Origin: Escherichia coli
GTDB lineage: Bacteria > Pseudomonadota > Gammaproteobacteria > Enterobacterales > Enterobacteriaceae
Length of the DNA stretch: 64,000 bases
Reading direction: 5' to 3' (one strand)
Assembly: GCF_044324875.1 (NCBI RefSeq)
Contig: NZ_CP172185.1
Part shown: piece after piece, positions 2,997 to 63,393 of the stretch
How positions within the stretch are numbered: the stretch's first letter is position 1
Layout of the letters: every line of letters begins with the position of its first letter
Notes under the pieces: model-generated
The model's database searches: none
What the model saw: the letters and a program-made list of their open reading frames with translations, nothing else
What the model was told of the DNA's origin: nothing
Program-made: the position numbers and the translations under genes

Positions 2997-3784
2997 TGCT
3001 GGCAGCCCGGACACCAGTAAAACGGGCGCGAGGACAGCGTGGTTTTCTCAATGATGCTGCCACAGCGTTCACACGGTTCGCCATCACGATGAAAAACCTT
3101 AAAGCGAAACAACGCCCCATGATGTTTATTCTCATCCACCTGCCCCCGCGTAGCGTAAGAAAGTCGAGGAATATCCAGTAACGCGTCTGCGAGTGCATCC
3201 AGTTGCGCCGCACTGAGATCTTTCGCTTTATGATTGCCGGTTAACCCCACCTGCCAGAGGATCTCCACCCGCAAATAATTACCAAGTCCTGCCAGAAACG
3301 CCTGATCGAGCAGTAATCCAGCAAACTGACGGTTACGAAAGCGCGGCGACAATAATCGTTCCTTTACCACCTCTGGCGTCAGATTCGGATCCAGCACATC
3401 TGGACCAACGCGTTGTAAAAACGGATGCGTGGTCAGTTGTTCCGGGGTCAACATCTCAATATCCGAGGCGCTATAAAGCAGAATGGTTTTGTCAGCCGTT
3501 TGCAGTTTTACCCGCAATACTCGCGTGGTCTGCGGCTCTTCGCCGGTTTCAACCACGCGCCAGACGCCGTAAAGCTGATTATGGCTGTAGAGCGTTAAGT
3601 CGTTGGAAAAATGAGTTAACAACGCCTTACCACGCGTTTCCACATGGGTAACGTGTTGACCGATAAGTCGTGATTGATAAGATTTTAACTGCGGGAAGGC
3701 AAACCAGACATCAGTTAGTGGTTTGCCTTTGATCGCCGCCTCCAGGTTATCCGCTGCACGGCGGATCTCCGGGCCTTCAGGCAT
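2993..3784 (-). CDS. nei: Endonuclease VIII (Fpg/Nei DNA glycosylase)
   Basis: 263-aa ORF starting MPEGPEIRR (catalytic N-terminal Pro) with a C-terminal CxxC...CxxC zinc finger. Confidence 0.9.
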
Positions 3785-3819
3785 GGTGATATCCTTTTTT
3801 CATTCTTTATTAAGCGGGG

Positions 3820-4554
3820 TTATGCTGCGACAACAATCCCCTTTTCGGCAAATGTAGAGCGTAGTCGGCGGGCGAACGCCAGTGCGTGCTCGCCATCGCC
3901 ATGCAGGCAGACCGTTTGCGCCGTGACCGTTGCCCATTCGCCGGTGATGCTTTTGACTCTGCCGTGTTGCACCATCTCCAACGTTTGCGCCAGCGCCTGT
4001 TCTTCGTTTTCAATCAACGCGCCTGGCTGGCTTCGCGGCACCAGCGAACCGTCTGCCTGATAACCGCGATCGGCAAACACTTCCTCGCGCGTTGTCAGGC
4101 CATATTGCTTGCCTGCACGAATCAGCTCGCTTCCTGCCAGCCCGACGAGAATCAATACCGGATCGCAAGCGTATACCGCTCTGGCGATGGCGTCTGCCAG
4201 TTGTGCCTCTTTCGCCGCCTGGTTGTATAACATGCCGTGCGGTTTGACATGACACATTACGCCGCCTTGCGCACGGGTAATCGCTGCCAGCGCGCCAATT
4301 TGATACAGCGTCTGGGCGTAAACGGTTTCTGGCGGCAGCTGCATGGCGCTGCGACCAAAATTTTCCCTGTCGGGAAAACTCGGGTGAGCGCCAATCGCGA
4401 CACCATTTTTTATTGCTTCACGCACGCAAGCCTGCATGGTTTGCGCATTGCCTGCATGAAATCCACAGGCAATATTGGCAGAGGAAACCAGCGTTAATAG
4501 CTCTGCGTCGCTGGCGCAGCCTTCGCCCAGATCGGCGTTCAGATCAATTTTCAT
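3820..4554 (-). CDS. pxpA: 5-oxoprolinase subunit A (LamB/YcsF family)
   Basis: 244-aa ORF, LamB/YcsF-like; first in an overlapping three-gene set with the two genes upstream. Confidence 0.85.
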
Positions 4555-6979: not shown

Positions 6980-8644
<1,665 letters not shown>

Positions 8645-8691: not shown

Positions 8692-10104
8692 TCCTTTCCT
8701 CGCTTCTTCGTACGCTGCCAGCGTTCGCAGCCTTGCCTCTTTATGATCAACTATCGGTTGCGGATAATCCAGCGTCACACCTGATTTATCTGCCCACTTC
8801 CACGGCTCATGCACCACTTTCCCTGGCACATCGCGCAGTTCCGGTAGCCACTGGCGGATAAACTCGCCTTCGCGGTCAAATTTCTCGCCCTGGGTTGTCG
8901 GGTTAAAAATACGAAAATACGGCGCTGCATCGGTTCCGGTTGAAGCGGCCCACTGCCAGCCACCGTTATTAGCTGCCAAATCACCATCAATCAGCTGCGA
9001 CATGAAATATCGCTCGCCTTCGCGCCAGTCGATCAACAAATCTTTCACCAGAAAACTGGCTGTAATCATCCGTAGCCTGTTATGCATCCAGCCAGTGCTG
9101 TTAAGCTGACGCATGGCAGCATCGACAATCGGGTATCCCGTTTTGCCTTCCTGCCAGGCCTGTAAATGTGCGGGATTGCTCTGCCACTGCACACGATCCG
9201 TCCAGGCAATAAACGGACAATGTTTACACAACGAGGGGTAATACGTCATCAGATGACGGTAGAACTCGCGCCAGATCAGCTCACTAAGCCAGACACTACC
9301 GGCCCCACCGTCCAGCGCCTGCGGCTGTTCCGCCAACAAGCGATGCAAACACTGGCGAGGCGATAACCCGCCCGTTGCCAGGCTGGCGGACAAACGACTG
9401 GTGCCTTCCACTGCCGGAAAATCTCGTTGTTGCTCATATTCTCCGGCACCGTTCTGGCAAAACTGGCGTAATTGCGCAATCGCAGCTTTTTCTTCCACCG
9501 GGAAATGCGCAGTATCGAAAGGCTGACGAGGATAATTCAGCGTAATGGATGGCGCGGGAGCTATCGATCCGCTACTACGTACTTTTGGCGCAGCGACGCA
9601 CTCCGGCATCCCTTCTCGCAGCCGTTTCAGCCAGGCGTTTTTAAATGGCGTAAAAACTTTGTACATCTCATGATTGCCAGTCATCACCGCCCCCGGCGGC
9701 AGGATCACGCTGTCATCAAATCCTTCACACACCACGTTACGCAGCGTTCTCTCAACCTGCACATCCCGCGCCCGCTCATTCACCTCATACTGATAGTTAT
9801 AAAAAAGATGAGTAACGCGGTTTTCCGCGCACACCTGATTAACTGTTTCGACACTGGCGGCAAAGTCATCCACTTCACGGAACAATAAAGGAATACCTTT
9901 TTCTGCCAGTGCTGTTTGTAGCCCGTTCAGTTGCGCATTGATAAATTCAGCCTGACGCGGCGACATATTATGCGCTGCCCACTGGCGCGGTGTGGCTATA
10001 TACAGCGCCAGCACGCGTGCAGACGAATTGCGGCAGGCGGCAGCCAGTGCGAGATTATCGTGCAGACGTAAATCCTGGCGAAACCAGACCAGATGGGTAG
10101 TCAT
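8686..10104 (-). CDS. phr: Deoxyribodipyrimidine photolyase
   Basis: ORF 8686..10143; internal start MTTHLVWFRQDLRL gives 472 aa; FAD-binding photolyase C-terminal domain. Confidence 0.9.
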   Translation of the reverse strand: MTTHLVWFRQDLRLHDNLALAAACRNSSARVLALYIATPRQWAAHNMSPRQAEFINAQLNGLQTALAEKGIPLLFREVDDFAASVETVNQVCAENRVTHLFYNYQYEVNERARDVQVERTLRNVVCEGFDDSVILPPGAVMTGNHEMYKVFTPFKNAWLKRLREGMPECVAAPKVRSSGSIAPAPSITLNYPRQPFDTAHFPVEEKAAIAQLRQFCQNGAGEYEQQRDFPAVEGTSRLSASLATGGLSPRQCLHRLLAEQPQALDGGAGSVWLSELIWREFYRHLMTYYPSLCKHCPFIAWTDRVQWQSNPAHLQAWQEGKTGYPIVDAAMRQLNSTGWMHNRLRMITASFLVKDLLIDWREGERYFMSQLIDGDLAANNGGWQWAASTGTDAAPYFRIFNPTTQGEKFDREGEFIRQWLPELRDVPGKVVHEPWKWADKSGVTLDYPQPIVDHKEARLRTLAAYEEARKGA

Positions 10105-10610
10105 AAAACTCCTGCATGGCGCAAGTGAATAATACGCGGCCAAAGTTCGAAATAACGCTGCCCTGAAAGCCAGGCGTCAGGATAAAGCGCCATATAGTGT
10201 TTGATACGCATCAGCGGCGCAAGAAGCGGTTGCTCGCCACGGCGATAACTGTCGATAAGCGCCGCCAGCTGCTGGCGTTCTGTGGAATCAATATGTGGGC
10301 GAAAATATCCCTGAACGTGCATCAAAACGTTAGTATGATCACGCCGGTTGGCAGGGTGAGAAAGCAAAACAATTACGCGTTGGCGGTACTGGTTGTAATA
10401 GTCATCCAGATTTTGCCACCGGTGAATATCTGCCACGAACGGGCCAAGTTTGCGGTACTCGGGCTGGGAATGGGCCAGAAAGACGAGTTTATAGCGGCTG
10501 TGATAATCGTTGAGTGCCCCGCGCGTTAAGCCATGTTCTTTCAGTCGATGTAACTCGTGGAGAGCGAAGATACGGATTAGGGTGCTTTCATCAAATCGTT
10601 GCTGATTCAT
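10101..10610 (-). CDS. ybgA: DUF1722 protein, upstream partner of phr
   Basis: 169-aa ORF; its stop overlaps the phr start. Confidence 0.8.
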   Translation of the reverse strand: MNQQRFDESTLIRIFALHELHRLKEHGLTRGALNDYHSRYKLVFLAHSQPEYRKLGPFVADIHRWQNLDDYYNQYRQRVIVLLSHPANRRDHTNVLMHVQGYFRPHIDSTERQQLAALIDSYRRGEQPLLAPLMRIKHYMALYPDAWLSGQRYFELWPRIIHLRHAGVL

Positions 10611-10694
10611 TACTGCTCCTGAACGGTTTACAGGAGTAAGTGTAGACGGCAGTATTGAAAAAACGAAACGAATAAATGAGATCGGTAAAGAAAT

Positions 10695-11102
10695 TCAATA
10701 ACTCATAATAAATTTCATGGTGGCGATAAATAGTTTCTTTTCTTCATCACTCATGGTAGAAGCGTTTAACATGTTGCCATAAAATTTACTGATGATATTT
10801 TTTAATTGCAGCAAATGCAAAGGAGAAAAATAGTCACTCCCGATGAGATTACTCAATACCAGCAATAATTCTCCATTATATAAATAACCTACCATAAGAT
10901 TAATCTCTATCATCTCAATTGCTTTTTGTACAGCAAGCGCTGGTAAGATATTCTGACGAAGCATTTTGGCAATATCATTTTCATCCAGTTCATCCGGTGT
11001 TTTATCCAATAAAGAGTTATACCAGTTTATTAAACCACTTTTGAAAGCGAATGAATCATATTGCAGGTGATAAATCTGTTTTAGGGTTTCTTTATTTTTC
11101 AT
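10695..11102 (-). CDS. Hypothetical protein (135 aa) in an AT-rich islet
   Basis: ORF in a very AT-rich stretch; 12 bp downstream of the 94-aa ORF on the same strand; no family recognised. Confidence 0.45.
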   Translation of the reverse strand: MKNKETLKQIYHLQYDSFAFKSGLINWYNSLLDKTPDELDENDIAKMLRQNILPALAVQKAIEMIEINLMVGYLYNGELLLVLSNLIGSDYFSPLHLLQLKNIISKFYGNMLNASTMSDEEKKLFIATMKFIMSY

Positions 11103-11114
11103 TTTATAATGTCT

Positions 11115-11399
11115 TTATTTGCTATGATTTTTCTGATTTAATTCTATATCATTTAAAGCATTTTCAAGCCAATCATCCATGTTCTTAATTTTAGCCCGCT
11201 CATACAAATCATGCACAACATCTTCATAACGCCGTCCATCATTGACCATACAATTAGCTGTATGAGGCAGAACATGTATAAAATCAGACAATATAAAACA
11301 AGCCTTTGCATTTCCAGAGTTAGCTGCAGTTCTGATATCAATCAAGCCTCTGGCAATTAATTTAAGAATAACACTAACATCTTGCATTTTAATTTCCAT
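11115..11399 (-). CDS. Hypothetical protein (94 aa) in an AT-rich islet
   Basis: ORF in the AT-rich islet, co-oriented with its neighbours; no family recognised. Confidence 0.4.
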   Translation of the reverse strand: MEIKMQDVSVILKLIARGLIDIRTAANSGNAKACFILSDFIHVLPHTANCMVNDGRRYEDVVHDLYERAKIKNMDDWLENALNDIELNQKNHSK

Positions 11400-11481
11400 A
11401 TCATCCAGTTAAATTTTAGTCGTAAATCGTCTATCTAAAAAAGATGAAATTAACATTTATAAATTTATTACAATATAAAAA

Positions 11482-11835
11482 TCAAAAATATACATCATCA
11501 GCTTCTACTGAAAACTCCATGGCTCCTAAGGCACCTAAATCAATACTAAATATGGTATCACTTTCCTTAGCACTCCCAACATAGATAAAATAGCCTAAAT
11601 CCCCATCCTGACCTATCAAAAAATAGTCAGGCTCCACTCGTTGAATATCATATGTTTCATTTCTTTCAATAAGATCAGAATAGTTATACAGATATAATAT
11701 TTCATGCTTCTTATTAGTTATTTCATAGGCCTCACTATCTTTAATTTCTTCTATTAAGAAACGTTTATACACTGGAGGAAATTTGATTGACATGTCAAAT
11801 TCAATTTTATTTATATATTCTATGATTTTATTCAT
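11482..11835 (-). CDS. SUKH/SMI1-KNR4-like protein (putative orphan immunity protein, 117 aa)
   Basis: Motifs FPPVYKRFL and DYFLIGQDGDLGYFIYVGS resemble the SMI1/KNR4 (SUKH) immunity family; AT-rich; no toxin gene upstream. Confidence 0.5.
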   Translation of the reverse strand: MNKIIEYINKIEFDMSIKFPPVYKRFLIEEIKDSEAYEITNKKHEILYLYNYSDLIERNETYDIQRVEPDYFLIGQDGDLGYFIYVGSAKESDTIFSIDLGALGAMEFSVEADDVYF

Positions 11836-12069
11836 GTTAAGAATACCTGAGCGGTTAATTATCGGTTATTGTGATGAATATATATTCGCTTTTAATTTTC
11901 AATAACTCATCACGGAAATACATATTGCTTTGTAGGCAAGCGCTAATAATACTTTATGAACCTGACTTCCGCCAGATATTCAACCTAAATATTCATGACG
12001 CAGTAATGTTTTAGAAAGCCACTAACTGCCCAGATAGTGCATCATCTACTACATTGGCGATTATACTCT

Positions 12070-12258
12070 AAATAATTCAAGTTGCAGGAAGGCGACAAGC
12101 GAGTGACAAATTCGTCAGGAACGAATTTGCCCAGTCGCAGGCTGACCTTCGGTGAGAGACATGGATGTCTCTCATTAATCCCCAGGAGCTTACATAAGTA
12201 AGTGACTGGGGTGAACGAACGCAGTCGCAGCACATGCAACTTGAAGTATGACGAGTAT
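12070..12258. repeat. ERIC (enterobacterial repetitive intergenic consensus) element
   Basis: Contains the ERIC core cccaggagcttacataagtaagtgactggggtga and the flanking gcatgcaacttgaagtatgacgagtat. Confidence 0.55.
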
Positions 12259-12302
12259 ATAAAAAACCCCTGATTCCAGTTCCTTGTGCTGCGATCCTAA
12301 CC

Positions 12303-12337
12303 AAAAAAAAACCGCCAGCGTTTCCGCTGGCGGTTTT
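12303..12337 (-). terminator. Rho-independent terminator downstream of ybfA
   Basis: Stem ccgccagcg/cgctggcgg with a 4-nt loop; 9-nt T-run on the minus strand. Confidence 0.7.
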
Positions 12338-12359
12338 CAATGTATTCAGAACTCAGCAA

Positions 12360-12566
12360 TCAGTAAAAATCACCGGTTGCCTTTTCGGCCTGATCCATCC
12401 AAACCGGTTTATCGCTGGTTTTCGACCAGACGCGATGCAGATAGCTGTAAAAGCGGGCGCGGTCTTTCCAGAAAAGCATGAAAGGCAGCGCCAGAACGCC
12501 CACTGCAACCGCATAAGTACGGCGTAAAAAGATAAGCCATGCAGGATATTCTCTGTAGAGTTCCAT
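12360..12566 (-). CDS. ybfA: Small DUF2517 membrane protein
   Basis: 68-aa [17 protein letters not shown]..., divergent from kdpF. Confidence 0.75.
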
Positions 12567-12775
12567 ACTTTTCTCCCCCTTTTGTATCTACCCGGTGAAT
12601 GGCACCGGAAAAATGAATTCGTTTATCTGATGAAAATAGTACCGCCTTTTGTGTAATTTTACTACTCATCCGACCACTTATTTTTGCTTATTGATGGTTT
12701 ATTTACATTCACCGTGTAATTAAGTTACACAAAGGTTAAATTAATACTAAACATTAGTTAAATCATGGCTTTTGC

Positions 12776-12805
12776 CATTTTTATACTTTTTTTACACCCC
12801 GCCCG
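12776..12805 (+). promoter_or_regulatory. KdpE-binding region and promoter of kdpFABC
   Basis: Sequence catttttatactttttttacaccccgcccg upstream of kdpF matches the KdpE operator region as I remember it. Confidence 0.55.
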
Positions 12806-12878
12806 CAGATTTTTGCGAAATCTTTGCAGCCAGAATTCTACCCTTCCGGTATCACTTTTAGGCCACTGGAGGTGCACT

Positions 12879-12968
12879 GTGAGTGCAGGCGTGATAGCCG
12901 GCGTGTTGCTGGTGTTTTTATTACTGGGTTATCTGGTTTATGCCCTGATCAATGCGGAGGCGTTCTGA
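12879..12968 (+). CDS. kdpF: K+-transporting ATPase small subunit F (29 aa)
   Basis: GTG start; peptide [29 protein letters not shown]; stop overlaps the kdpA start (TGATG). Confidence 0.8.
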
Positions 12969-14641
12969 TGGCTGCGCAAGGGTTCTTACTGATCGCCACG
13001 TTTTTACTGGTGTTAATGGTGCTGGCACGTCCTTTAGGCAGCGGGCTGGCGCGGCTGATTAATGACATACCTCTTCCCGGTACAGCGGGCGTTGAACGTA
13101 TACTCTTTCGTTTACCTGGCGTCTCTGACCATGAGATGAACTGGAAGCAGTATCTCTGTGCCATTCTCGGCCTGAACATGCTGGGGCTGGCGGTGCTGTT
13201 TTTTATGTTGCTCGGTCAGCACTATCTGCCGCTTAATCCACAGCAGTTGCCGGGGCTGTCGTGGGATCTGGCGCTGAATACTGCCGTCAGCTTTGTCACC
13301 AATACCAACTGGCAATCTTACAGCGGTGAAACTACGTTGAGCTATTTCAGCCAGATGGCTGGCTTAACGGTGCAAAACTTTCTTTCTGCCGCCAGCGGGA
13401 TTGCGGTGATTTTTGCCCTCATCCGTGCGTTTACCCGCCAGAGCATGAGCACACTCGGGAATGCCTGGGTCGATCTGCTACGCATCACGTTATGGGTGCT
13501 AGTCCCTGTGGCGTTGTTGATCGCACTGTTTTTTATTCAACAAGGTGCGCTGCAAAACTTTCTGCCCTATCAGGCGGTGAATACCGTTGAAGGAGCGAAA
13601 CAGCTGTTACCAATGGGTCCGGTGGCTTCTCAGGAAGCGATCAAGATGCTCGGCACTAACGGCGGTGGCTTCTTTAATGCCAACTCGTCGCATCCGTTTG
13701 AAAACCCAACCGCACTGACCAACTTCGTGCAAATGCTGGCGATCTTCTTGATCCCAACAGCGCTGTGCTTTGCCTTTGGTGAAGTGGCGGGCGATCGTCG
13801 TCAGGGGCGCATGTTGCTGTGGGCGATGTCAGTGATTTTTGTCATCTGCGCAGGCGTGGTGATGTGGGCAGAAGTTCAGGGTAATCCTCATCTGCTGGCG
13901 CTGGGCGCGGACAGCAGCATCAATATGGAAGGTAAAGAGAGCCGTTTCGGCGTGCTGGTCAGTAGCCTGTTTGCGGTCGTGACTACGGCGGCTTCCTGCG
14001 GCGCGGTGATTGCGATGCATGATTCGTTTACCGCCCCCGGTGGCATGGTGCCGATGTGGCTGATGCAAATTGGTGAAGTGGTATTCGGCGGTGTCGGTTC
14101 TGGTCTTTACGGCATGATGCTGTTTGTCCTGCTGGCGGTGTTTATTGCCGGGCTGATGATTGGTCGTACACCGGAATATCTGGGTAAAAAAATCGACGTA
14201 CGCGAGATGAAACTGACCGCACTGGCGATTCTGGTCACCCCGACGCTGGTGCTGATGGGCGCGGCGCTGGCGATGATGACCGACGCCGGACGTAGCGCCA
14301 TGCTCAACCCGGGCCCGCATGGTTTTAGCGAAGTGCTGTACGCCGTGTCATCCGCCGCTAACAACAACGGCAGCGCCTTTGCCGGATTAAGCGCCAACTC
14401 CCCATTCTGGAACTGTTTGCTGGCGTTCTGCATGTTTGTTGGTCGCTTCGGGGTGATTATTCCGGTGATGGCAATTGCTGGTTCGCTGGTGAGTAAAAAG
14501 AGCCAACCCGCCAGCTCCGGCACACTGCCTACGCACGGCCCGCTGTTTGTTGGCCTGTTAATCGGCACCGTGTTGCTGGTTGGCGCACTGACCTTTATCC
14601 CTGCCCTGGCGCTTGGTCCGGTGGCGGAATATCTCTCCTGA
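12968..14641 (+). CDS. kdpA: K+-transporting ATPase subunit A
   Basis: 557 aa from [12 protein letters not shown]...; multi-pass membrane protein. Confidence 0.95.
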
Positions 14642-14663
14642 TGATATTGAGTGAGCACTGAAT

Positions 14664-16712
14664 ATGAGTCGTAAACAACTGGCGCTATTCGAACCAACAC
14701 TTGTCGTTCAGGCGCTGAAAGAAGCGGTGAAAAAATTAAACCCGCAGGCGCAATGGCGCAATCCGGTGATGTTTATCGTCTGGATCGGCAGTCTGCTGAC
14801 CACCTTTATTAGCATCGCAATGGCAAGCGGTGCGATGCCTGGCAATGTGCTGTTTAGCGCGGCAATCAGCGGCTGGCTGTGGGTCACCGTACTGTTCGCT
14901 AATTTCGCCGAGGCGCTGGCAGAAGGCCGCAGTAAAGCGCAGGCCAACAGTCTGAAAGGGGTGAAAAAAACTGCCTTTGCCCGCAAGCTGCGTGAGCCGA
15001 AATATGGCGCTGCGGCGGACAAAGTTCCCGCCGATCAACTGCGTAAAGGCGATATCGTACTGGTAGAAGCTGGCGATATTATCCCCTGCGATGGTGAAGT
15101 CATTGAAGGGGGTGCATCGGTCGATGAAAGCGCCATCACCGGGGAATCGGCACCGGTGATCCGTGAATCCGGCGGCGATTTTGCCTCCGTCACTGGCGGC
15201 ACGCGTATTCTTTCTGACTGGCTGGTGATTGAGTGCAGCGTTAACCCCGGCGAGACATTTCTGGATCGGATGATCGCGATGGTGGAAGGTGCGCAGCGAC
15301 GTAAAACGCCGAACGAGATTGCCCTGACCATCCTGCTGATTGCCCTGACTATCGTCTTTTTACTGGCAACCGCCACGCTGTGGCCGTTTTCCGCGTGGGG
15401 CGGTAATGCAGTCAGTGTAACGGTACTGGTGGCGCTGCTGGTCTGTCTGATCCCAACCACTATTGGCGGCCTGTTGTCAGCGATCGGCGTCGCCGGGATG
15501 AGTCGGATGCTGGGCGCGAATGTGATTGCCACCAGCGGACGTGCAGTTGAAGCGGCAGGTGACGTTGACGTTCTGCTACTGGATAAAACCGGCACCATCA
15601 CACTCGGTAACCGTCAGGCGTCGGAGTTTATCCCCGCGCAGGGCGTGGATGAAAAAATGCTGGCTGACGCCGCACAACTGGCTTCGCTGGCTGATGAAAC
15701 GCCGGAAGGCCGCAGTATTGTGATCCTCGCCAAGCAGCGTTTTAACCTGCGCGAGCGCGATGTGCAGTCGCTCCATGCCACCTTTGTACCGTTTACTGCG
15801 CAAAGCCGGATGAGCGGGATCAACATCGACAACCGCATGATCCGTAAAGGTTCTGTCGATGCCATTCGCCGCCATGTTGAGGCTAATGGTGGTCACTTCC
15901 CAGCCGATGTTGATCAAAAAGTCGATCAGGTTGCGCGTCAGGGAGCCACGCCGCTTGTAGTAGTAGAAGGCTCCCATGTGCTTGGCGTTATTGCGCTGAA
16001 AGATATCGTCAAAGGCGGTATTAAAGAGCGCTTCGCGCAGTTGCGTAAAATGGGCATTAAAACGGTGATGATTACCGGTGATAACCGTCTGACTGCCGCC
16101 GCGATAGCTGCGGAAGCGGGTGTCGATGATTTTCTCGCCGAAGCGACACCGGAGGCCAAGCTGGCATTGATTCGTCAGTATCAGGCGGAAGGCCGTTTGG
16201 TGGCGATGACCGGCGATGGCACCAACGATGCTCCGGCGCTGGCGCAGGCAGATGTCGCGGTGGCGATGAACTCTGGTACTCAGGCGGCGAAAGAAGCGGG
16301 CAATATGGTGGATCTCGACTCTAACCCGACCAAGTTGATCGAGGTGGTGCATATTGGCAAACAGATGCTGATGACCCGTGGCTCGCTGACCACCTTCAGC
16401 ATTGCCAACGATGTGGCGAAATACTTCGCCATTATTCCGGCGGCGTTCGCGGCAACGTATCCGCAGTTAAATGCGCTGAACATCATGCGCCTGCATTCGC
16501 CCGACTCCGCCATTCTCAGTGCGGTCATTTTCAACGCCTTGATTATCGTCTTTTTGATTCCCCTGGCGTTAAAAGGCGTGAGTTATAAACCGTTTACCGC
16601 TTCTGCCATGTTGCGCCGTAACTTATGGATTTACGGTCTGGGTGGGCTGCTGGTGCCGTTTATTGGTATCAAAGTCATTGATTTACTGCTGACCGTTTGC
16701 GGTCTGGTGTGA
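14664..16712 (+). CDS. kdpB: K+-transporting P-type ATPase subunit B
   Basis: 682 aa; P-type ATPase motifs DKTGT and GDGTND present. Confidence 0.95.
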
Positions 16713-37133: not shown

Positions 37134-38442
<1,309 letters not shown>

Positions 38443-57299: not shown

Positions 57300-58751
57300 T
57301 CAGCTAAACAACATCGCGATTTTTCCGAGAGCATAACCTATCACCAGCACCGTTAAGCTGATTTTGATAATGCTGGTAATGCTCTGTGGTTTTTCATCCT
57401 CATCATTTTTTTCTTCGTGGTTTTCAGGTGTTGGCTCATCGACATCTTCATCCTCCGGCTCGAGTTTCACTTTCGTCAACAGCATCCGGGTGATAATGGC
57501 CTCTAATGGATGAGCATCTCCACCTTCCAGCCTTGTATTAAGACGGGCCAGCATCTCTTGTTTCGGGAACGCTTCCAGCACAACCTGTTCCGCTACCCGA
57601 TACAAATCCAGTAACGGTGAATCTTGTTCTGTCTCGCTACCGACTCTCGATTTCCACCACGCCCATGCTTTGCGCTTGAAGAATAACGACTCAATAAACG
57701 ATTGACCTAACGGCGATAATTTTCCGCTATGTAAAATTTCCGCCCATAACAGCCGCGTCCGGGCGCTCTCACCAGGAACATATTTCAACGGTTGACCTTG
57801 CGCATCAACCATGCTCTGCGCTTCGATAACCATCACTAACAGCGCGAAATAATCCGGGCAATGACGCTTGCTCCACTGCAACAACAAATTATCGGCTTGT
57901 GTAGATGGGTAACTCTCCCGGTATGCGCAGAGATCGGCAAGCAGGCTTTCCCCCTCGCCACAGTACAACCGTTGCGCACACTGGTAATAACGGGCATCTT
58001 CGCTTTCTGGTTCTTCTGCTTGCCACTGTTGGGCAACAGGAATGAGTTCCGCCATACCTCTTTTCACCGAGCTGTACCAGCGCAACAGTTTGCGATGTAA
58101 CTTGACATCATCAGGAATGAACCACGGACCTTCCATTGCCATAAACGCAGTGACATAGTCGGGATGGTAACGGCAACAGCGTTCCAGCGCGAAGTAATAC
58201 TCAACAGTCTGGTTCTGCAACGCGACGGGATATTCCAGAAGGCTAAGGAAATCGAAACAATCACCAGCCTGAATGGCCTCAAGAAAAGCCTCCCTTTCTT
58301 CCTCATCCATTCCTTCGCTGTCATTAAACGAATGCCAGTTCAAACGCTCTGCCAGCAAAGAAGCACAATTTAATGAAAGATATCGCGCTTCTATAGCGAT
58401 TGCACACAGCGGCCAGCGTAATTGATCGACATCCTCCATGTTCCAGGTATTTAATTGCTGAATAAATTTCTGCCAGGCGGAGGGCTGAAAACGATCACTT
58501 TCTGAATCCAGTAATGTCCTGAATGCACGTAGTATTTCATGTTCAGCGGCGGCATCTTTTTCTTCATCATCTGCTTCCTCGACAGGATTTACCGCCAGTC
58601 GCAGCGCCTCTTCATAGGCCTGGCGTAATGCTTTAAACCCCTGCGGATCGGTTTCGGGATGACACAACGGTAAGCGAGCAAGATAAGCCTGGCGGATAAT
58701 GTCTATTTGCGTCGTGCTTTCAATTTCGAGGATTTGCCAACATGTTTTCAT
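57300..58751 (-). CDS. djlC: J-domain co-chaperone of HscC (membrane-anchored at the C-terminus)
   Basis: 483 aa; N-terminal J-like domain with an HPE tripeptide; C-terminal hydrophobic segment; start overlaps the ybeU stop. Confidence 0.8.
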
Positions 58752-59455
58752 AGGTCGCTCACATCCTTAAGCGTTACCGGGCATTCAGGCTGGGCAGTCA
58801 ATGGCTGCCAGGGAAGCGTGGCATAGAAACGATCGCTTCCCGCTGCCAGCTCTTCGAACATCCGACTCCCGGCGCTATCGTATTTGTACAGGGTTAGCGC
58901 CTCGCGTAACGAAGCGTTGTCTTCGCATTGAGAAGATTGCCAGTAGAGACGCCCTAGTGAATAGGCAGAAAAATAGTGCATCCAGCTGTGATAGTAATGG
59001 TGTGCTCGGACATAGATGCGCGATTGCAGCCATAAACTCTCTTCTTCCGTCAGCCACTTGTTGAGCACACCGACCCGTGACAGAAACCCCATTCGAACAT
59101 AATCCCAGGCTTTGATTCCCCCTTCTCCACAGCACATAGCGGTTTGGGCAACGAATTGGGTATAAATCAACCCTCTCTCCGAGCCACCAGCAATTAATGC
59201 TTTCCACTCTTCAGGGGAAGAGCGATGCCATGTCAGATATAAGCCAGCTAAATCATTGGCATGACCATCATCGGTCATCTGATAAATAGTCTGAATTAAA
59301 TCATCACGATTATTTATTCCCCAGGATGATGAGAGATCGAATTCTTTTATCCCGGTATACATTTTTGGCGAGTCATGCGCGGGCTTGCAACCCTGATTAA
59401 GTATTTCCATGGGCGTAGAAAGCGCAAAAAGAAGATATTGTTCTTCCTTATTCAT
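58748..59455 (-). CDS. ybeU: DUF1266-family protein
   Basis: 235 aa; translationally coupled to djlC; paralogous to the ybeR product. Confidence 0.8.
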
Positions 59456-59556
59456 TTGTTAATAATCCCTTAAGTGCATTAACTGACTACTTTTTTATTA
59501 TTGATGAGTATAAACTTGACGCTTTCAAAATAAAAAGAAAATCGAAGTATTCACAC

Positions 59557-60111
59557 ATGAATAAAAAATTAATGTATATATTCGCAATATTTATAGTTGC
59601 AGCAATAACCTGTATTAGTCAACCCAAGAAAACGACGTTGCGTGATAAAGCCATGGTGAATTATGCCTTTGATTATTTAAGCTCACCGGGCAGTCTTCCA
59701 TTCACCACGGCAGCCACGGAGCTTTCCGCGATTCATGGTCACTCAACGTCGCAATATCGCCTTGGAGAATTTTATCTTCATGGTAGCGACGGTAAACCAC
59801 TGGATTATACACAGGCGAGATACTGGTATGAGCAATCAGCGGAACAGGAAAATCCACGCGCGCAAAGTAAACTGGGGTGGATCTACCTCAAAGGTCTGGG
59901 GGTCAAACCCGATACCCGTAAAGCAATTCTCTGGTATAAGGAAGCAGCTGAACAAGGGTATGCTCATGCTCAATATACTTTAGGTTTGATCTACAGAAAC
60001 GGCTCAGGTATTAATGTTAACCATTATGAATCTCAAAAATGGTTAAAACTGGCCGCCAAACAACATTACAAAAATGCGGAAAGATTACTTGCCGGGCTTC
60101 CCGCACATTAA
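59557..60111 (+). CDS. ybeT: Sel1-repeat (TPR-like) protein with signal peptide
   Basis: 184 aa; Sel1 repeats (AQ..LG..Y..G.GV..D...A..WY..AA.QG). Confidence 0.8.
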
Positions 60112-60120
60112 CGTCGACTG

Positions 60121-61548
60121 TCACCCGAACAGATGGAGTATTTTCCCTATCAAACCAGCAAAGATAAAAATATAGAAAATAATTTTGATGACGCCCAGAC
60201 AGCCCGGCCCACCATCGTCAACGGGCATTGGCTGCGGTTGCGGCTCCGGTTCAACAGTTTGCTTCTCGGTAAAATTCGCCGCCTGAATTAATAATCGACG
60301 AATAATTAATGCTTCCAGTGGACAACGATCTTCTGCATCAAGGCGGCTCACAATCGGCATTAATGATTCTTCTGTCGGTTGGCTGGCCTGCACTAATTGT
60401 TTGGCAACTAGATATAATGGCCATAAGGGATGTTCTGTATCACGCGTGAGTGAGATCCGCGGCTTACGTCCTTTGTGCAAAACCATCTCGACCAGAGAAC
60501 GCCCCAGCGCAGAGAGTTTTTCATCACTGAGTATTTCGTATAAATGAAAACGCGTACGAGCGCTGTCACCAGGGACATAAAGTAGCGGTTTTCCCTGATC
60601 GTTAACCAGATCACGCGCTTCAATCATCATCACCACTAATGGGTAATAATCGACCCGATGCTGACGGCACCATTGCAACATTAAAGCATCCGCCTGGGTG
60701 GAGGGATACTCGCGCCAGTAGTCACAAAGTTCTGCCAGCAGGCTTTCGCCTTCTCCACAATAGACGCGTTGCGCGTATTCATAATAACGCGCATCTTCAT
60801 TATCAGGTTCAGCTTCCCGCCACGACCGGGCGTAATCCAGAAGTTCGGGGATTCCCAGGCGGCTTGCGCTATACCAGCGGAGTAAATTTCTGTGCAGTTT
60901 TGCATCATCGGGGATAATCACTGCGCGATGTTGCGCTAAATACAATGTCAGCCATTCTGGATGCGATGACCAAATCCGAGCGAACATTTGGTAAAAATCG
61001 ATGGTGTCATTTTGCACGGCAACGGGCAGATGCAGAATGGTCTGGAAGTTAAAAACATTCCCCTTCGCAATGGCATATAAAAAGGATTCCAGTTCTTCTT
61101 CGTCTATTTCCCCGGTGTTTTCCTCCTGCAACCACCGCAGTCTTTCTGCTAATAACACCACGCACTCGAAGGATAAATGGGCAGTGTTCATGGCGATTGT
61201 GCACAGCGACCAGCGTAATTCATCAATCTCTTCCATCGAGCAATAATTTAATTGCTGAATGAATCGCTGCCAGGCGGAAGGCAGAAAACGTTCGCTATCA
61301 GAGGCGAGTAACGCACGAAAGGCGAGCAGAATTTCATGTTCTGCAACTTCATGTTCTTCTGGTTGCCAAACAGATTTAGCAGGGGACTGCGCAATCCGTA
61401 GCGCATCCTCATACGCCTGACGAAGTTGTTTAAAACCCTGCGGATCTGTTTCTGGATGAAAGGACGGTAACAAGGCCAGATAAGCGCGACGGATAATATC
61501 GACGTCAGTCGTTTGAGGTATATCGAGGATCTGCCAGCAAGTTTTCAT
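60121..61548 (-). CDS. djlB: J-domain protein, paralog of DjlC
   Basis: 475 aa; same architecture as djlC (N-terminal J-like domain with HPE, C-terminal hydrophobic tail). Confidence 0.8.
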
Positions 61549-62252
61549 AGGTCGCTCATATCCTTAAGCGTTTCCGGGCATGTGGGGTAGTCAACCAGTG
61601 GTTGCCAGGGTAAGGTCGCGTAATATGCATCGTCACTGGCAAATAATTGATAAAACATATCATTGCCGGAATCGTCGTATTCTTTACGCGCTAAGAATTC
61701 ACGTAATAACTGAAGATTATCATCTTCGGGAGACTGCCAATATTGCCGACCAAAGGTATAACCGGCAAAGTATTGCTGCCAGTTACTATAATAACGTAGC
61801 GCCCGTAGATGAATGCGCGACTGGATCCATAGACTTTCTTCTTCGCTTAACCAGTTATTAAGTACGCCCATTCGGCTTAAAAAACCCATCCGGACATAAT
61901 CCCAGGCTTTAATTCCTCCCTCACCACAGCATTCGGCGGTGCTGGCGACAAATTGCGCATAAGCCTGACCTTGCTCATTTAATTCAGCAAGATAGTCACG
62001 CCATTCACATGGCGAATAACGAAACCAGCAGTGATAAAACCCTGCCAACCGCGCGGCATGACCGTTATCAATCATTCGGTGAATTGTGCGCAGCAGGTCA
62101 TCACGGTCATCAATTCCCCAGGAGGAAGAAAGGTCAAAAAAGCGTGTACCTAAATACATTTTGGGAGATGAATGCGAAGGTAAACAGCATTCATTGCGTA
62201 TTTCCATCGGAGTGGAAAGTGCAAACAATATTTTTTGCGACTCCATGTCCAT
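61545..62252 (-). CDS. ybeR: DUF1266-family protein, paralog of YbeU
   Basis: ORF 61545..62279; probable start at the internal [13 protein letters not shown]; translationally coupled to djlB. Confidence 0.75.
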
Positions 62253-62409
62253 ATAATTTATCCTTAAATATTCATTCAATGAATATTAACCACGTTGCGA
62301 GGCTCATTTATTTATACTTTTCTGACGCAACATAATACGCATAAAATAAGGCTTACGCAAAAATGGAACACATAAAAATATAATATGTTTTATATGCAAC
62401 CATAAGGAA

Positions 62410-63393
62410 ATGATAATGATTTTTACGTCAAGTTGCTGCGATAATTTATCAATAGATGAGATTATCGAACGTGCTGAAAAAGGCGATTGCGAGGCTCAAT
62501 ATATTATTGGGTTTTATTATAATCGCGATAGCGCAATTGACTCTCCGGACGACGAAAAAGCCTTCTACTGGCTGAAGCTGGCCGCTGAGCAAGGCCATTG
62601 TGAAGCACAATATTCCTTAGGGCGGAAATACTCCGAGGATAAAAGCCGTCATAAAGATAATGAGCAAGCCATCTTTTGGCTGAAAAAAGCTGCCCTACAA
62701 GGCCATACTTTCGCTTCCAACGCCCTTGGCTGGATACTGGATCGTGGAGAAGACCCCAACTATAAAGAAGCGGTTGCCTGGTATCAGATAGCCGCGGAGA
62801 GCGGAATGTCTTATGCGCAAAATAATCTTGGATGGATGTACAGAAATGGCAACGGAGTCGCTCAAGACTATGCGCTGGCATTTTTCTGGTACAAACAAGC
62901 TGCATTACAAGGCCATAGTTACGCACAAGACAATCTGGCCGATCTTTATGAAGACGGAAAAGGCGTTGCTCAAAACAAGACACTCGCCGCATTCTGGTAT
63001 TTGAAAAGCGCACAGCAGGGTAATCGGCATGCCCAGTTTCAAATTGCATGGGATTATAACGCTGGCGAAGGGGTGGACCAGGACTATAAGCAAGCCATGT
63101 ACTGGTATCTGAAGGCTGCCGCTCAGGAAAGCGTCGGCGCTTACGTCAACATCGGTTATATGTATAAACATGGACAAGGCGTTGAGAAAGATTATCAGGC
63201 CGCCTTTGAATGGTTTATGAAAGCCGCTGAATGCAATGACGCCACTGCCTGGTATAACCTGGCCATTATGTATCACTACGGAGAAGGAAGACCTGTCGAT
63301 CTCCGACAGGCTCTCGACCTGTATCGTAAAGTTCAGGCATCCGGTACCAGGGATGTCAGTCAAGAAATCCGTGAGATTGAAGATTTACTGTAA
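62410..63393 (+). CDS. ybeQ: Sel1-repeat protein
   Basis: 327 aa; multiple Sel1 repeats. Confidence 0.8.
   Translation: MIMIFTSSCCDNLSIDEIIERAEKGDCEAQYIIGFYYNRDSAIDSPDDEKAFYWLKLAAEQGHCEAQYSLGRKYSEDKSRHKDNEQAIFWLKKAALQGHTFASNALGWILDRGEDPNYKEAVAWYQIAAESGMSYAQNNLGWMYRNGNGVAQDYALAFFWYKQAALQGHSYAQDNLADLYEDGKGVAQNKTLAAFWYLKSAQQGNRHAQFQIAWDYNAGEGVDQDYKQAMYWYLKAAAQESVGAYVNIGYMYKHGQGVEKDYQAAFEWFMKAAECNDATAWYNLAIMYHYGEGRPVDLRQALDLYRKVQASGTRDVSQEIREIEDLL

What the first reader, a model, noticed from the sequence alone, without database searches (positions are those of the whole stretch)
10611..12060. AT-rich three-ORF islet at the locus where K-12 carries the RhsC element
Between ybgA and ybfA there is about 1.75 kb of strongly AT-rich DNA, quite unlike the flanking core genes. 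It holds three small co-oriented ORFs of 135, 94 and 117 aa. From memory, K-12 has the roughly 10-kb RhsC element and its downstream orphan modules at this position. Here there is no Rhs core and no toxin gene, so this looks like an orphan immunity-gene array, or possibly an uncharacterised small defence or toxin-antitoxin module.
Basis: partly seen in the sequence, partly recalled or inferred. Interest (0 to 1): 0.7.

Follow-up and report, generated by a model that had tools for sequence, protein, structure and literature searches.

The report
Orphan toxin-immunity gene array in E. coli
Where laboratory E. coli K-12 carries the 10-kb RhsC toxin element, this strain has three small genes that look like antidotes to toxins injected by rival bacteria, with no toxin gene beside them; this kind of locus is already known, so the finding is real but fairly ordinary.

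Summary
Three co-oriented minus-strand ORFs of 135, 94 (more likely 90) and 117 aa fill a ~30% GC islet between ybgA and ybfA. K-12 has the 9.66-kb RhsC element at this position.

- **ORF1** belongs to Pfam CdiI_3. It is distantly related to CdiI of E. coli 536 and to the immunity gene of an orphan Ntox28 module in EC93.
- **ORF3** is a SUKH/SMI1-KNR4 protein. Its 69-70% homologues lie directly after Rhs proteins ending in the Tox-SHH DNase domain in E. marmotae and Cronobacter.
- **ORF2** matches no Pfam family. It belongs to an unnamed family of ~85-aa helical proteins. In three independent contexts its relatives directly follow Rhs proteins ending in one conserved, unclassified ~90-aa toxin domain.

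The islet holds no toxin gene, no Rhs core, and no hit to known defence systems.

It occurs in 170 of 5426 complete E. coli genomes; 1311 have an empty site and about 2500 carry a K-12-like RhsC element. E. fergusonii holds a four-gene version at the same locus.

ORF3 is under strong purifying selection, ORF1 moderate and ORF2 weak. Expression and actual protection are untested.

Verdict: a new member of a known kind, of modest interest.

The parts
11482..11835 (-). ORF3, 117 aa: SUKH-1 (SMI1/KNR4) immunity protein, predicted to neutralise a Tox-SHH (His-Me finger DNase) toxin
   Evidence: Pfam SMI1_KNR4 E = 2.3e-4, with weaker SUKH_5 and SUKH_6 matches. PDB 3D5P E = 6.6e-6. Homologues of 69-70% identity lie 20-22 bp downstream of PAAR-Rhs-Tox-SHH genes in Cronobacter malonaticus (L007) and E. 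marmotae (L014-L016). dN/dS is 0.05-0.07.
11115..11387 (-). ORF2, 90 aa from the second ATG (94 aa from 11399): member of an unnamed family of ~85-aa five-helix proteins, predicted immunity protein for an unclassified ~90-aa Rhs C-terminal toxin domain
   Evidence: No Pfam, NCBIfam or PADLOC hit. The family has 58 clusters at E <= 1e-3. The AF2 model has pLDDT 96 and is all-helical. No PDB fold match was found, and AFDB matched only its own family. It is 54% identical to the gene directly after a VgrG-linked Rhs in about 100 E. coli genomes. Relatives of 43% and 38% identity follow the same toxin domain in a metagenome contig and a Hahella MAG. dN/dS is 0.48-0.64.
10695..11102 (-). ORF1, 135 aa: CdiI_3-family immunity protein, predicted to neutralise an Ntox28/EC536-type tRNase toxin
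   Evidence: Pfam CdiI_3 PF18616 E = 5.9e-17. PDB 5J5V chain C (CdiI of E. coli 536) E = 1.7e-5 (identity of that entry from PMC11724271). It is 33% identical over residues 21-86 to the immunity gene that follows an orphan 'polymorphic toxin type 28' module on EC93 plasmid pCP127. RefSeq names it a CDI immunity protein. dN/dS is 0.15-0.45.
11836..12061 (-). AT-rich untranslated leader upstream of ORF3; any promoter for the array must lie here or in the ERIC element
   Evidence: The segment is shared with the four-gene islet variant. The ybfA terminator at 12307-12338 insulates the array from ybfA. No promoter-like site stands out above the shuffle expectation. No toxin remnant was found.
11136..11145 (.). 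Junction of an ~802-bp deletion relative to the four-gene form of the islet; it fuses the 3' end of ORF2 to the sequence just upstream of ORF1
   Evidence: Alignment with E. coli 2013C-4282 and E. fergusonii and blastn breakpoints. The missing segment carries the 3' remnant of a toxin-like gene and a 155-aa gene.
10649..12295 (.). Full variable segment: islet plus ERIC, bounded by the ybgA leader and the ybfA terminator
   Evidence: Boundaries come from alignments with K-12, 2013C-4282 and E. albertii and from the empty site of E. coli 042.

Best explanation
The islet is a heterogeneous polyimmunity locus. It is a tandem array of three unrelated orphan immunity genes from polymorphic-toxin systems, sitting in the ybfA/ybgA hot spot that holds the RhsC element in K-12.

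- ORF3 (SUKH) against a Tox-SHH His-Me-finger DNase carried by T6SS PAAR-Rhs proteins.
- ORF2 against an unclassified ~90-aa Rhs C-terminal toxin.
- ORF1 (CdiI_3) against an Ntox28/EC536-type tRNA anticodon nuclease delivered by CdiA or an analogous carrier.

Because no toxin is encoded next to them, their only plausible use is protection against non-kin attack.

What is shown: family membership for ORF1 and ORF3, conserved toxin-adjacent position of relatives for all three, absence of a toxin gene, presence/absence polymorphism at the locus, and purifying selection on ORF3 and ORF1.

What is inferred: that the genes are expressed, that they still bind toxins in circulation, and which toxin each one blocks. 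The three-gene form derives from a four-gene form (as in E. fergusonii) by an ~802-bp deletion; that direction is also an inference.
For: - ORF1 matches CdiI_3 at E = 5.9e-17, matches the 5J5V CdiI chain, and has a 33% relative after an Ntox28 orphan toxin on EC93 pCP127.
- ORF3 matches SUKH. Its 69-70% homologues lie directly after Rhs-Tox-SHH in two genera. Zhang et al. 2012 list Imm-SUKH as a partner of Tox-SHH, and Tox-SHH effectors are DNases neutralised by cognate immunity.
- ORF2 relatives of 54%, 43% and 38% identity directly follow one conserved toxin domain in an E. coli T6SS Rhs, a metagenome Rhs C-terminus and a Hahella Rhs.
- The islet has no toxin and no Rhs and no significant PADLOC defence-system match.
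- dN/dS is 0.05-0.07 for ORF3 and 0.15-0.45 for ORF1, against 0.06-0.13 for the flanking core genes.
- The array is kept at the same locus in E. coli (170 genomes) and E. fergusonii, and E. albertii shares ORF1.
- All three ORFs are intact and at least 99.7% identical in 156 genomes.
Against: - No expression evidence exists, and no promoter stands out above chance.
- The closest toxin-linked relatives are only 70% (ORF3), 54% (ORF2) and 33% (ORF1) identical. Immunity is usually highly specific, so current protective value is uncertain.
- No complete E. coli genome carries the E. marmotae-type Tox-SHH C-terminus detectable by blastn.
- ORF2 has relaxed constraint (dN/dS 0.48-0.64, on small counts), and its C-terminus was rewritten by the deletion.
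- ORF1 is frameshifted in E. coli 2013C-4282.
- One genome has an IS1 inside the interval.
Confidence: 0.8

Rival explanations
1. The genes are relics. The array is what remains of toxin-immunity modules whose toxins were displaced or deleted. The genes persist by hitch-hiking in a clonal lineage and no longer protect against anything.
For: ORF2 dN/dS is 0.48-0.64 and its 3' end was altered by an ~802-bp deletion. ORF1 is frameshifted in 2013C-4282. The four-gene form still carries a toxin 3' remnant. No convincing promoter was found. 156 of the 170 carriers are near-identical, so persistence within E. coli says little about selection. All three genes are well diverged from any toxin-linked homologue.
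Against: ORF3 dN/dS of 0.05-0.07 equals that of the core genes, measured over dS of about 0.2. All three ORFs are intact in E. fergusonii, and ORF1 is intact in E. albertii, at the same locus. Open frames of this length are unlikely to survive in 30% GC DNA without selection.
Confidence: 0.15
2. The array is a small anti-phage defence system or a toxin-antitoxin module, in which one of the three proteins is a toxin or effector and another is its antidote or sensor.
For: It is a small AT-rich accessory islet of co-oriented genes in a variable hot spot, which is typical of defence islands. ORF2 has no annotated family.
Against: PADLOC gave no significant match: none for ORF2 or ORF3, and one weak partial match for ORF1 (E = 0.007). 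ORF1 and ORF3 belong to immunity families. ORF2's relatives sit behind Rhs toxin domains rather than beside defence genes. The gene content varies module by module between species, as expected for independent immunity cassettes rather than an obligate multi-part system.
Confidence: 0.03
3. The ORFs are chance open frames in horizontally acquired AT-rich non-coding DNA.
For: The DNA is AT-rich and the ribosome-binding sites are weak or unremarkable.
Against: None of 5000 shuffles gave three ORFs of 90 aa or more on one strand. There are significant HMM matches, a confident AF2 model for ORF2, a family of 58 clusters and dN/dS below 1.
Confidence: 0.01

Closest known systems
Heterogeneous polyimmunity loci of polymorphic toxin systems (Zhang, Aravind et al. 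2012, PMC3482391)
   Same: It is a tandem array of structurally unrelated immunity genes (SUKH, CdiI_3 and one more) with no adjacent toxin. The array is proposed to protect against toxins from non-kin strains, and SUKH is the commonest component of such loci.
   Different: It is very small, with three genes. It sits in a chromosomal Rhs hot spot of Escherichia rather than next to a toxin locus. One of its members belongs to a family that Pfam does not contain, and so is probably not in the Imm1-Imm75 catalogue.
Orphan cdiA-CT/cdiI and rhs-CT/rhsI modules downstream of CDI and Rhs loci (Poole et al. 2011, PMC3150448; Koskiniemi et al. 2014, PMC3967940), including K-12 RhsC with ybfB, ybfO and ybfC
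   Same: It occupies the same chromosomal site as RhsC. It has the same gene types, small immunity genes of polymorphic toxin systems. The four-gene variant retains a toxin 3' fragment, as displaced orphan modules do.
   Different: It has no Rhs core, no orphan toxin fragment, no H-repeat or ISAs1, and no sequence similarity to ybfB, ybfC or the RhsC C-terminus. These are immunity-only genes.
Orphan immunity genes of T6SS clusters (Vibrio cholerae, Kirchberger et al. 2017; E. coli, Ma et al. 2017, as reviewed in PMC6730261) and the acquired interbacterial defence islands of Bacteroidales (Ross et al. 2019, cited from memory)
   Same: Immunity genes are retained or acquired without their effector and are thought to protect against attack by other strains.
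   Different: The islet is not inside a T6SS cluster and not on a mobile element or integron-like structure. It mixes CDI-type and T6SS-Rhs-type immunities.
CdiI of E. coli 536 (PDB 5J5V), immunity to the CysK-activated CdiA-CT tRNase
   Same: ORF1 falls in the same Pfam family, CdiI_3, and aligns over about 93 residues.
   Different: The relationship is distant (E = 1.7e-5). No cdiBA genes are nearby, and the cognate toxin is unknown.

Membership tests
Heterogeneous polyimmunity locus / orphan immunity array | Two or more adjacent genes from unrelated immunity-protein families | tested here: met
   ORF1 is CdiI_3 and ORF3 is SUKH. ORF2 belongs to a third, unnamed family whose members sit in the immunity position.
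Heterogeneous polyimmunity locus / orphan immunity array | No cognate toxin gene adjacent to the immunity genes | tested here: met
   The ORF list and tblastn with seven candidate toxin or partner proteins show none. The flanks are core genes.
Heterogeneous polyimmunity locus / orphan immunity array | Relatives of each gene lie immediately downstream of a toxin domain elsewhere | tested here: met
   ORF3: Rhs-Tox-SHH in Cronobacter and E. marmotae. ORF2: E. coli T6SS Rhs, metagenome contig L021 and Hahella L023. ORF1: only distant relatives, an Ntox28 orphan module in EC93 at 33% and 5J5V.
Heterogeneous polyimmunity locus / orphan immunity array | The proteins bind and neutralise toxins delivered by other cells | not testable with these tools
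   This needs co-expression or competition experiments.
Rhs element (RhsC type) | Large Rhs core ORF with YD repeats and the PxxxxDPxGL boundary, followed by a C-terminal toxin | tested here: not met
   There is no ORF above 135 aa in the interval, no tblastn hit to Rhs C-termini, and only the flanks align with K-12.
Pfam CdiI_3 (PF18616) | Significant match to the family HMM | tested here: met
   ORF1 has i-Evalue 5.9e-17 and score 61.9, covering residues 10-85 against model positions 2-79 of 95.
SUKH superfamily (SMI1_KNR4, PF09346) | Significant match to the family HMM or to a solved SUKH structure | tested here: met
   ORF3 matches PF09346 at E = 2.3e-4 and 3D5P at E = 6.6e-6. Homologues carry precomputed PF09346, PF14567 and PF14568 hits. 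The match is weak but consistent.
Known anti-phage defence systems (PADLOC) / type II toxin-antitoxin modules | Match to a defence-system protein model, or an adjacent toxin and antitoxin pair | tested here: not met
   PADLOC gave no hit for ORF2 or ORF3 and one weak partial hit for ORF1 (E = 0.007). There is no toxin-like partner.

The most novel reading that the evidence does not exclude
ORF2 and its relatives (58 clusters at 50% identity, with conserved motifs LxDIR, LADLFHNxP and WLxNA, and a confident five-helix model with no PDB counterpart) are a previously undescribed immunity family. It is paired with a previously undescribed ~90-aa Rhs C-terminal toxin domain (LHSPETIGxRPDL...VDGNSR...DPNSSIT...YTPDxSxFWDM) of unknown activity. 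In addition, the three-gene array, apparently fixed in a successful human-associated E. coli lineage (probably ST69), may be actively maintained as an acquired defence against T6SS and CDI attack by other Enterobacteriaceae.
Probability: 0.45. Interest if true: 0.45.

Novelty: new member of a known kind. Interest (0 to 1): 0.3.

Why it matters
The locus shows that the classical RhsC site of E. coli is a three-state hot spot: empty, a full Rhs element, or an immunity-only array. It also shows that one widespread lineage carries antidotes without weapons. If the genes protect, they would shape which competitors that lineage can withstand in the gut.

The work also turns up a testable toxin/immunity pair that has no family assignment, the FWDM-type Rhs C-terminus with the ORF2 family. 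Beyond that, the finding confirms a known concept rather than opening a new one.

Tried and rejected
- **Database searches with no hits.** NCBIfam gave nothing for any of the three ORFs. PADLOC gave nothing significant.
- **ORF2 family assignment.** Pfam on ORF2 and on 41 family members found no family. Fold searches with the ORF2 model found no PDB match (best E = 2.3), and AFDB50 matched only its own uncharacterised family.
- **Toxin remnants or K-12 RhsC-locus genes inside the islet.** None were found.
- **Promoter and terminator scan.** Nothing stood out above the shuffle expectation except the ybfA terminator.
- **Rfam.** Only sub-threshold hits were found, all on the ERIC and terminator region.
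- **Genome-wide locus scans.** The narrower alignment returned a single locus.
- **Other ORF2-family contexts.** They were short contigs or immunity-like arrays and gave no information on toxins.
- **Lineage.** Fetching UMN026 to test the ST69 idea failed because the record is not in the collection.
- **Literature.** Searches by protein accession found nothing.
- **E. albertii neighbours.** The 251-aa and 155-aa proteins have no family.

Full report
**1. The observation**

The minus strand between ybgA (10101-10610) and ybfA (12360-12566) carries three non-overlapping ORFs: 10695-11102 (135 aa, ORF1), 11115-11399 (94 aa, ORF2) and 11482-11835 (117 aa, ORF3). GC falls to 0.28-0.33 across about 10650-12050, against about 0.52 in the flanks. 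This is the lowest GC in the 64-kb window. None of 5000 shuffles of 10611-12060 gave three ORFs of 90 aa or more on one strand.

The neighbours are dtpD, phrB and ybgA on one side and ybfA and kdpFABC on the other. In K-12 the same interval holds rhsC-ybfB-ybfO-ybfC-ybfQ-ybfL-ybfD, 9.66 kb in all.

There are two refinements. RefSeq and the family alignment put the ORF2 start at the second ATG (11387), giving 90 aa. The ybfA-proximal ~300 bp is not part of the AT-rich block. It consists of a long ERIC repeat (12062-12259) and the ybfA terminator.

**2. What the three proteins are**

*ORF1.* It matches Pfam CdiI_3 (PF18616) at E = 5.9e-17. It also matches the CdiI chain of PDB 5J5V at E = 1.7e-5. 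That entry is the complex of the CdiA-CT tRNA anticodon nuclease of E. coli 536 with its immunity protein and CysK (PMC11724271). On plasmid pCP127 of E. coli EC93, a gene 33% identical to ORF1 directly follows an orphan 'polymorphic toxin type 28' module downstream of cdiBAI. ORF1 is thus a distant member of the family that neutralises Ntox28-type tRNases.

*ORF3.* It matches SMI1_KNR4/SUKH-1 (E = 2.3e-4, with weaker SUKH_5 and SUKH_6 hits) and the SUKH structure 3D5P (E = 6.6e-6). Homologues of 69-70% identity lie 20-22 bp after VgrG-DcrB-PAAR-Rhs proteins whose C-terminus is the Tox-SHH domain. This is seen in Cronobacter malonaticus (L007) and in E. marmotae (L014-L016). The two toxin C-termini are themselves alike. 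Zhang et al. list Imm-SUKH among the partners of Tox-SHH, an HNH/EndoVII-fold nuclease (PMC3482391). Tox-SHH T6SS effectors have been shown to be DNases neutralised by their cognate immunity proteins (PMC10902643).

*ORF2.* It has no Pfam, NCBIfam or PADLOC match. An exhaustive HMMER search found 58 clusters of relatives, mostly 80-100 aa and some tandemly duplicated. They share the motifs LxDIR, LADLFHNxP and WLxNA, and none of 41 members hits any Pfam family. AlphaFold2 gives a confident five-helix model (pLDDT 96). That model has no PDB counterpart, and in AFDB it matches only uncharacterised members of its own family.

Function comes from genomic context:
- In about 100 complete E. coli genomes, a 54%-identical 85-aa gene lies one base after a VgrG-linked Rhs core protein at the yafV/ISEc1 T6SS locus.
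- On a metagenome contig, a 43% relative lies one base after an Rhs C-terminus, downstream of the DPLGL boundary.
- In a Hahella MAG, a 38% relative overlaps the end of an Rhs C-terminal ORF.

In all three cases the toxin ends in the same ~90-aa domain, with 48 invariant columns and the ending FWDM or FWDK. That domain has no Pfam hit and no PDB sequence relative. Its model was too poor for a meaningful fold search. ORF2 is therefore best read as the immunity protein of an unclassified Rhs toxin domain.

**3. What is absent**

The islet has no Rhs core, no toxin fragment and no relative of the K-12 RhsC-locus genes. The window contains no Rhs- or CdiA-sized ORF. No complete E. coli genome holds both the islet and the 54% ORF2 homologue with its Rhs, apart from at most one genome with two matching places. 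None carries the E. marmotae-type Tox-SHH C-terminus at blastn sensitivity. The genes are therefore orphans at the locus and, as far as could be tested, in the species.

**4. Population and history**

Among 5426 complete E. coli genomes:
- 170 carry the islet.
- 1311 have an essentially empty junction. In strain 042 the ybfA terminator is followed after 8 nt by the ybgA leader.
- 2534 hold at least 80% of the K-12 RhsC element. Some of these best matches may lie at other Rhs loci.

All three states share the same boundaries: the ybfA terminator on one side and about 41 bp upstream of the ybgA ATG on the other.

Of the 170 carriers, 156 have the window's three-gene form at 99.7% identity or more. 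Two of those records are named 'O15:H18 strain ST69' and 'UPEC69'. This suggests the ST69 lineage, but MLST was not run.

The other 14 carry a form that is ~92-93% identical and has an extra ~802 bp between ORF2 and ORF1. E. fergusonii has this four-gene form at the same locus. The extra DNA carries a 155-aa gene and the 3' remnant of a toxin-like gene. E. albertii has that toxin-like gene complete (251 aa, glycine-zipper C-terminus) in a different array that ends with an 87%-identical ORF1.

The simplest history is successive module displacement followed by a deletion in the window's lineage. The deletion junction (about 11136-11145) gave ORF2 a new C-terminal tail. That direction of events is an inference.

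The flanking core genes are unusually diverged. phrB-ybgA is 94% identical to K-12, and the best flank match outside the islet lineage is 96.1%. By contrast, ybfA dS against E. fergusonii is only 0.023. This hints that the locus moved together with its flanks by recombination.

**5. Selection and expression**

| Gene | dN/dS (window vs four-gene E. coli form, E. fergusonii, E. albertii) |
|---|---|
| ORF3 | 0.05-0.07 |
| ORF1 | 0.15-0.45 |
| ORF2 | 0.48-0.64 (5-6 synonymous vs 12-13 non-synonymous differences) |
| ybgA, phrB (core) | 0.06-0.13 |

ORF3 is as constrained as a housekeeping gene, ORF1 is moderately constrained, and ORF2 is weakly constrained. ORF1 is frameshifted in E. coli 2013C-4282.

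The ybfA terminator insulates the array from upstream transcription. No promoter-like site exceeds the shuffle expectation. No terminator separates ORF1 from ybgA-phrB, which has the same orientation, so read-through is possible. Expression remains untested.

**6. Mechanism and rivals**

The best-supported explanation is a small heterogeneous polyimmunity locus. Its three cytoplasmic immunity proteins would each sequester one incoming toxin domain: a Tox-SHH DNase, the FWDM-type Rhs toxin, or an Ntox28-type tRNase. This would protect a cell that does not itself make those toxins.

Specificity is the main doubt. The nearest toxin-linked relatives are 70%, 54% and 33% identical. Non-cognate protection has been documented for another immunity family (PMC12483513).

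The main rival is that the genes are relics with no present function (confidence 0.15). A defence-system or toxin-antitoxin reading (0.03) and a chance-ORF reading (0.01) are disfavoured.

**7. Comparison with known systems and novelty**

The concept is established. Polyimmunity loci were described by Zhang et al. 2012 (PMC3482391). Orphan CDI and Rhs modules were described in PMC3150448 and PMC3967940. Orphan T6SS immunity genes, including in E. coli, are reviewed in PMC6730261. RefSeq already names ORF1 a CDI immunity protein and, in some records, ORF3 an SMI1/KNR4 protein.

The new points are modest. They are the description of this particular array and its allelic relationship to RhsC and to an empty site, and the recognition that ORF2 belongs to an unnamed family paired with an unnamed Rhs toxin domain. 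No paper mentions these proteins by accession.

I rate the finding a new member of a known kind, with interest 0.3.

Noticed in passing
window 12062-12259: A long (~198-nt) ERIC/IRU repeat lies between the islet and the ybfA terminator. Its inverted-repeat arms are at 12062-12086 and 12235-12259, and both classical ERIC primer cores match at 12174-12217. E. coli genomes hold about 10 copies, usually ~127-130 nt, so this copy has an internal insertion. It is absent from the four-gene islet variant.
   Followed up: yes
window 11136-11145; L005 4485-5294; L010 ~9260-10060: There is an ~802-bp indel between ORF2 and ORF1. E. fergusonii and 14 E. coli genomes carry here the 3' remnant of a toxin-like gene plus a 155-aa gene, and the window lacks both. 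The junction rewrites the last residues of ORF2 to ...DIELNQKNHSK.
   Followed up: yes
L004 ~7245-7520 (minus strand); L021 2-346; L023 ~3700-3977: An unclassified ~90-aa Rhs C-terminal toxin domain (LHSPETIGxRPDL...VDGNSR...DPNSSIT...YTPDxSxFWDM) is conserved from E. coli to Hahella and is always followed by an ORF2-family gene. It has no Pfam or PDB match, and its activity is unknown.
   Followed up: partly
window 8693-10648 and 12306-14700: The core genes flanking the islet are unusually diverged. phrB-ybgA is 94.0% and ybfA-kdpA 97.1% identical to K-12, and the best flank match outside the islet lineage is 96.1%. By contrast, ybfA dS against E. fergusonii is only 0.023. This suggests the locus was imported together with its flanks by recombination.
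   Followed up: partly
L009 6195-7959 (E. albertii, same ybfA/ybgA locus): E. albertii has a different array here: a 147-aa gene, a 251-aa protein with a glycine-zipper hydrophobic C-terminus (toxin-like), a 155-aa partner, and then an 87%-identical ORF1. None of the first three has a Pfam or NCBIfam family.
   Followed up: partly
L026 661-763 (E. coli 042): This is a true empty site. The ybfA terminator is followed after 8 nt by the 41-nt ybgA leader. Only about 41 bp upstream of ybgA is conserved across all locus states, so any ybgA-phrB promoter must lie in the variable DNA or transcription must read through.
   Followed up: partly
E. coli genome hits H131-H185: The three-gene form is at least 99.7% identical in 156 genomes, mostly human isolates. 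Records named 'O15:H18 strain ST69' and 'UPEC69' are among them, which suggests fixation in the ST69 lineage. MLST was not done. One carrier has an IS1 inserted in the interval.
   Followed up: partly
window 59251-59750 and 62001-62750; window 37353-38333: Two other low-GC patches (0.37-0.39) lie near paralogous ~480-aa ORFs at 57300-58751 and 60121-61548. Separately, a 326-aa ORF beginning [19 protein letters not shown] looks, from memory only, like an IS110-family transposase.
   Followed up: no
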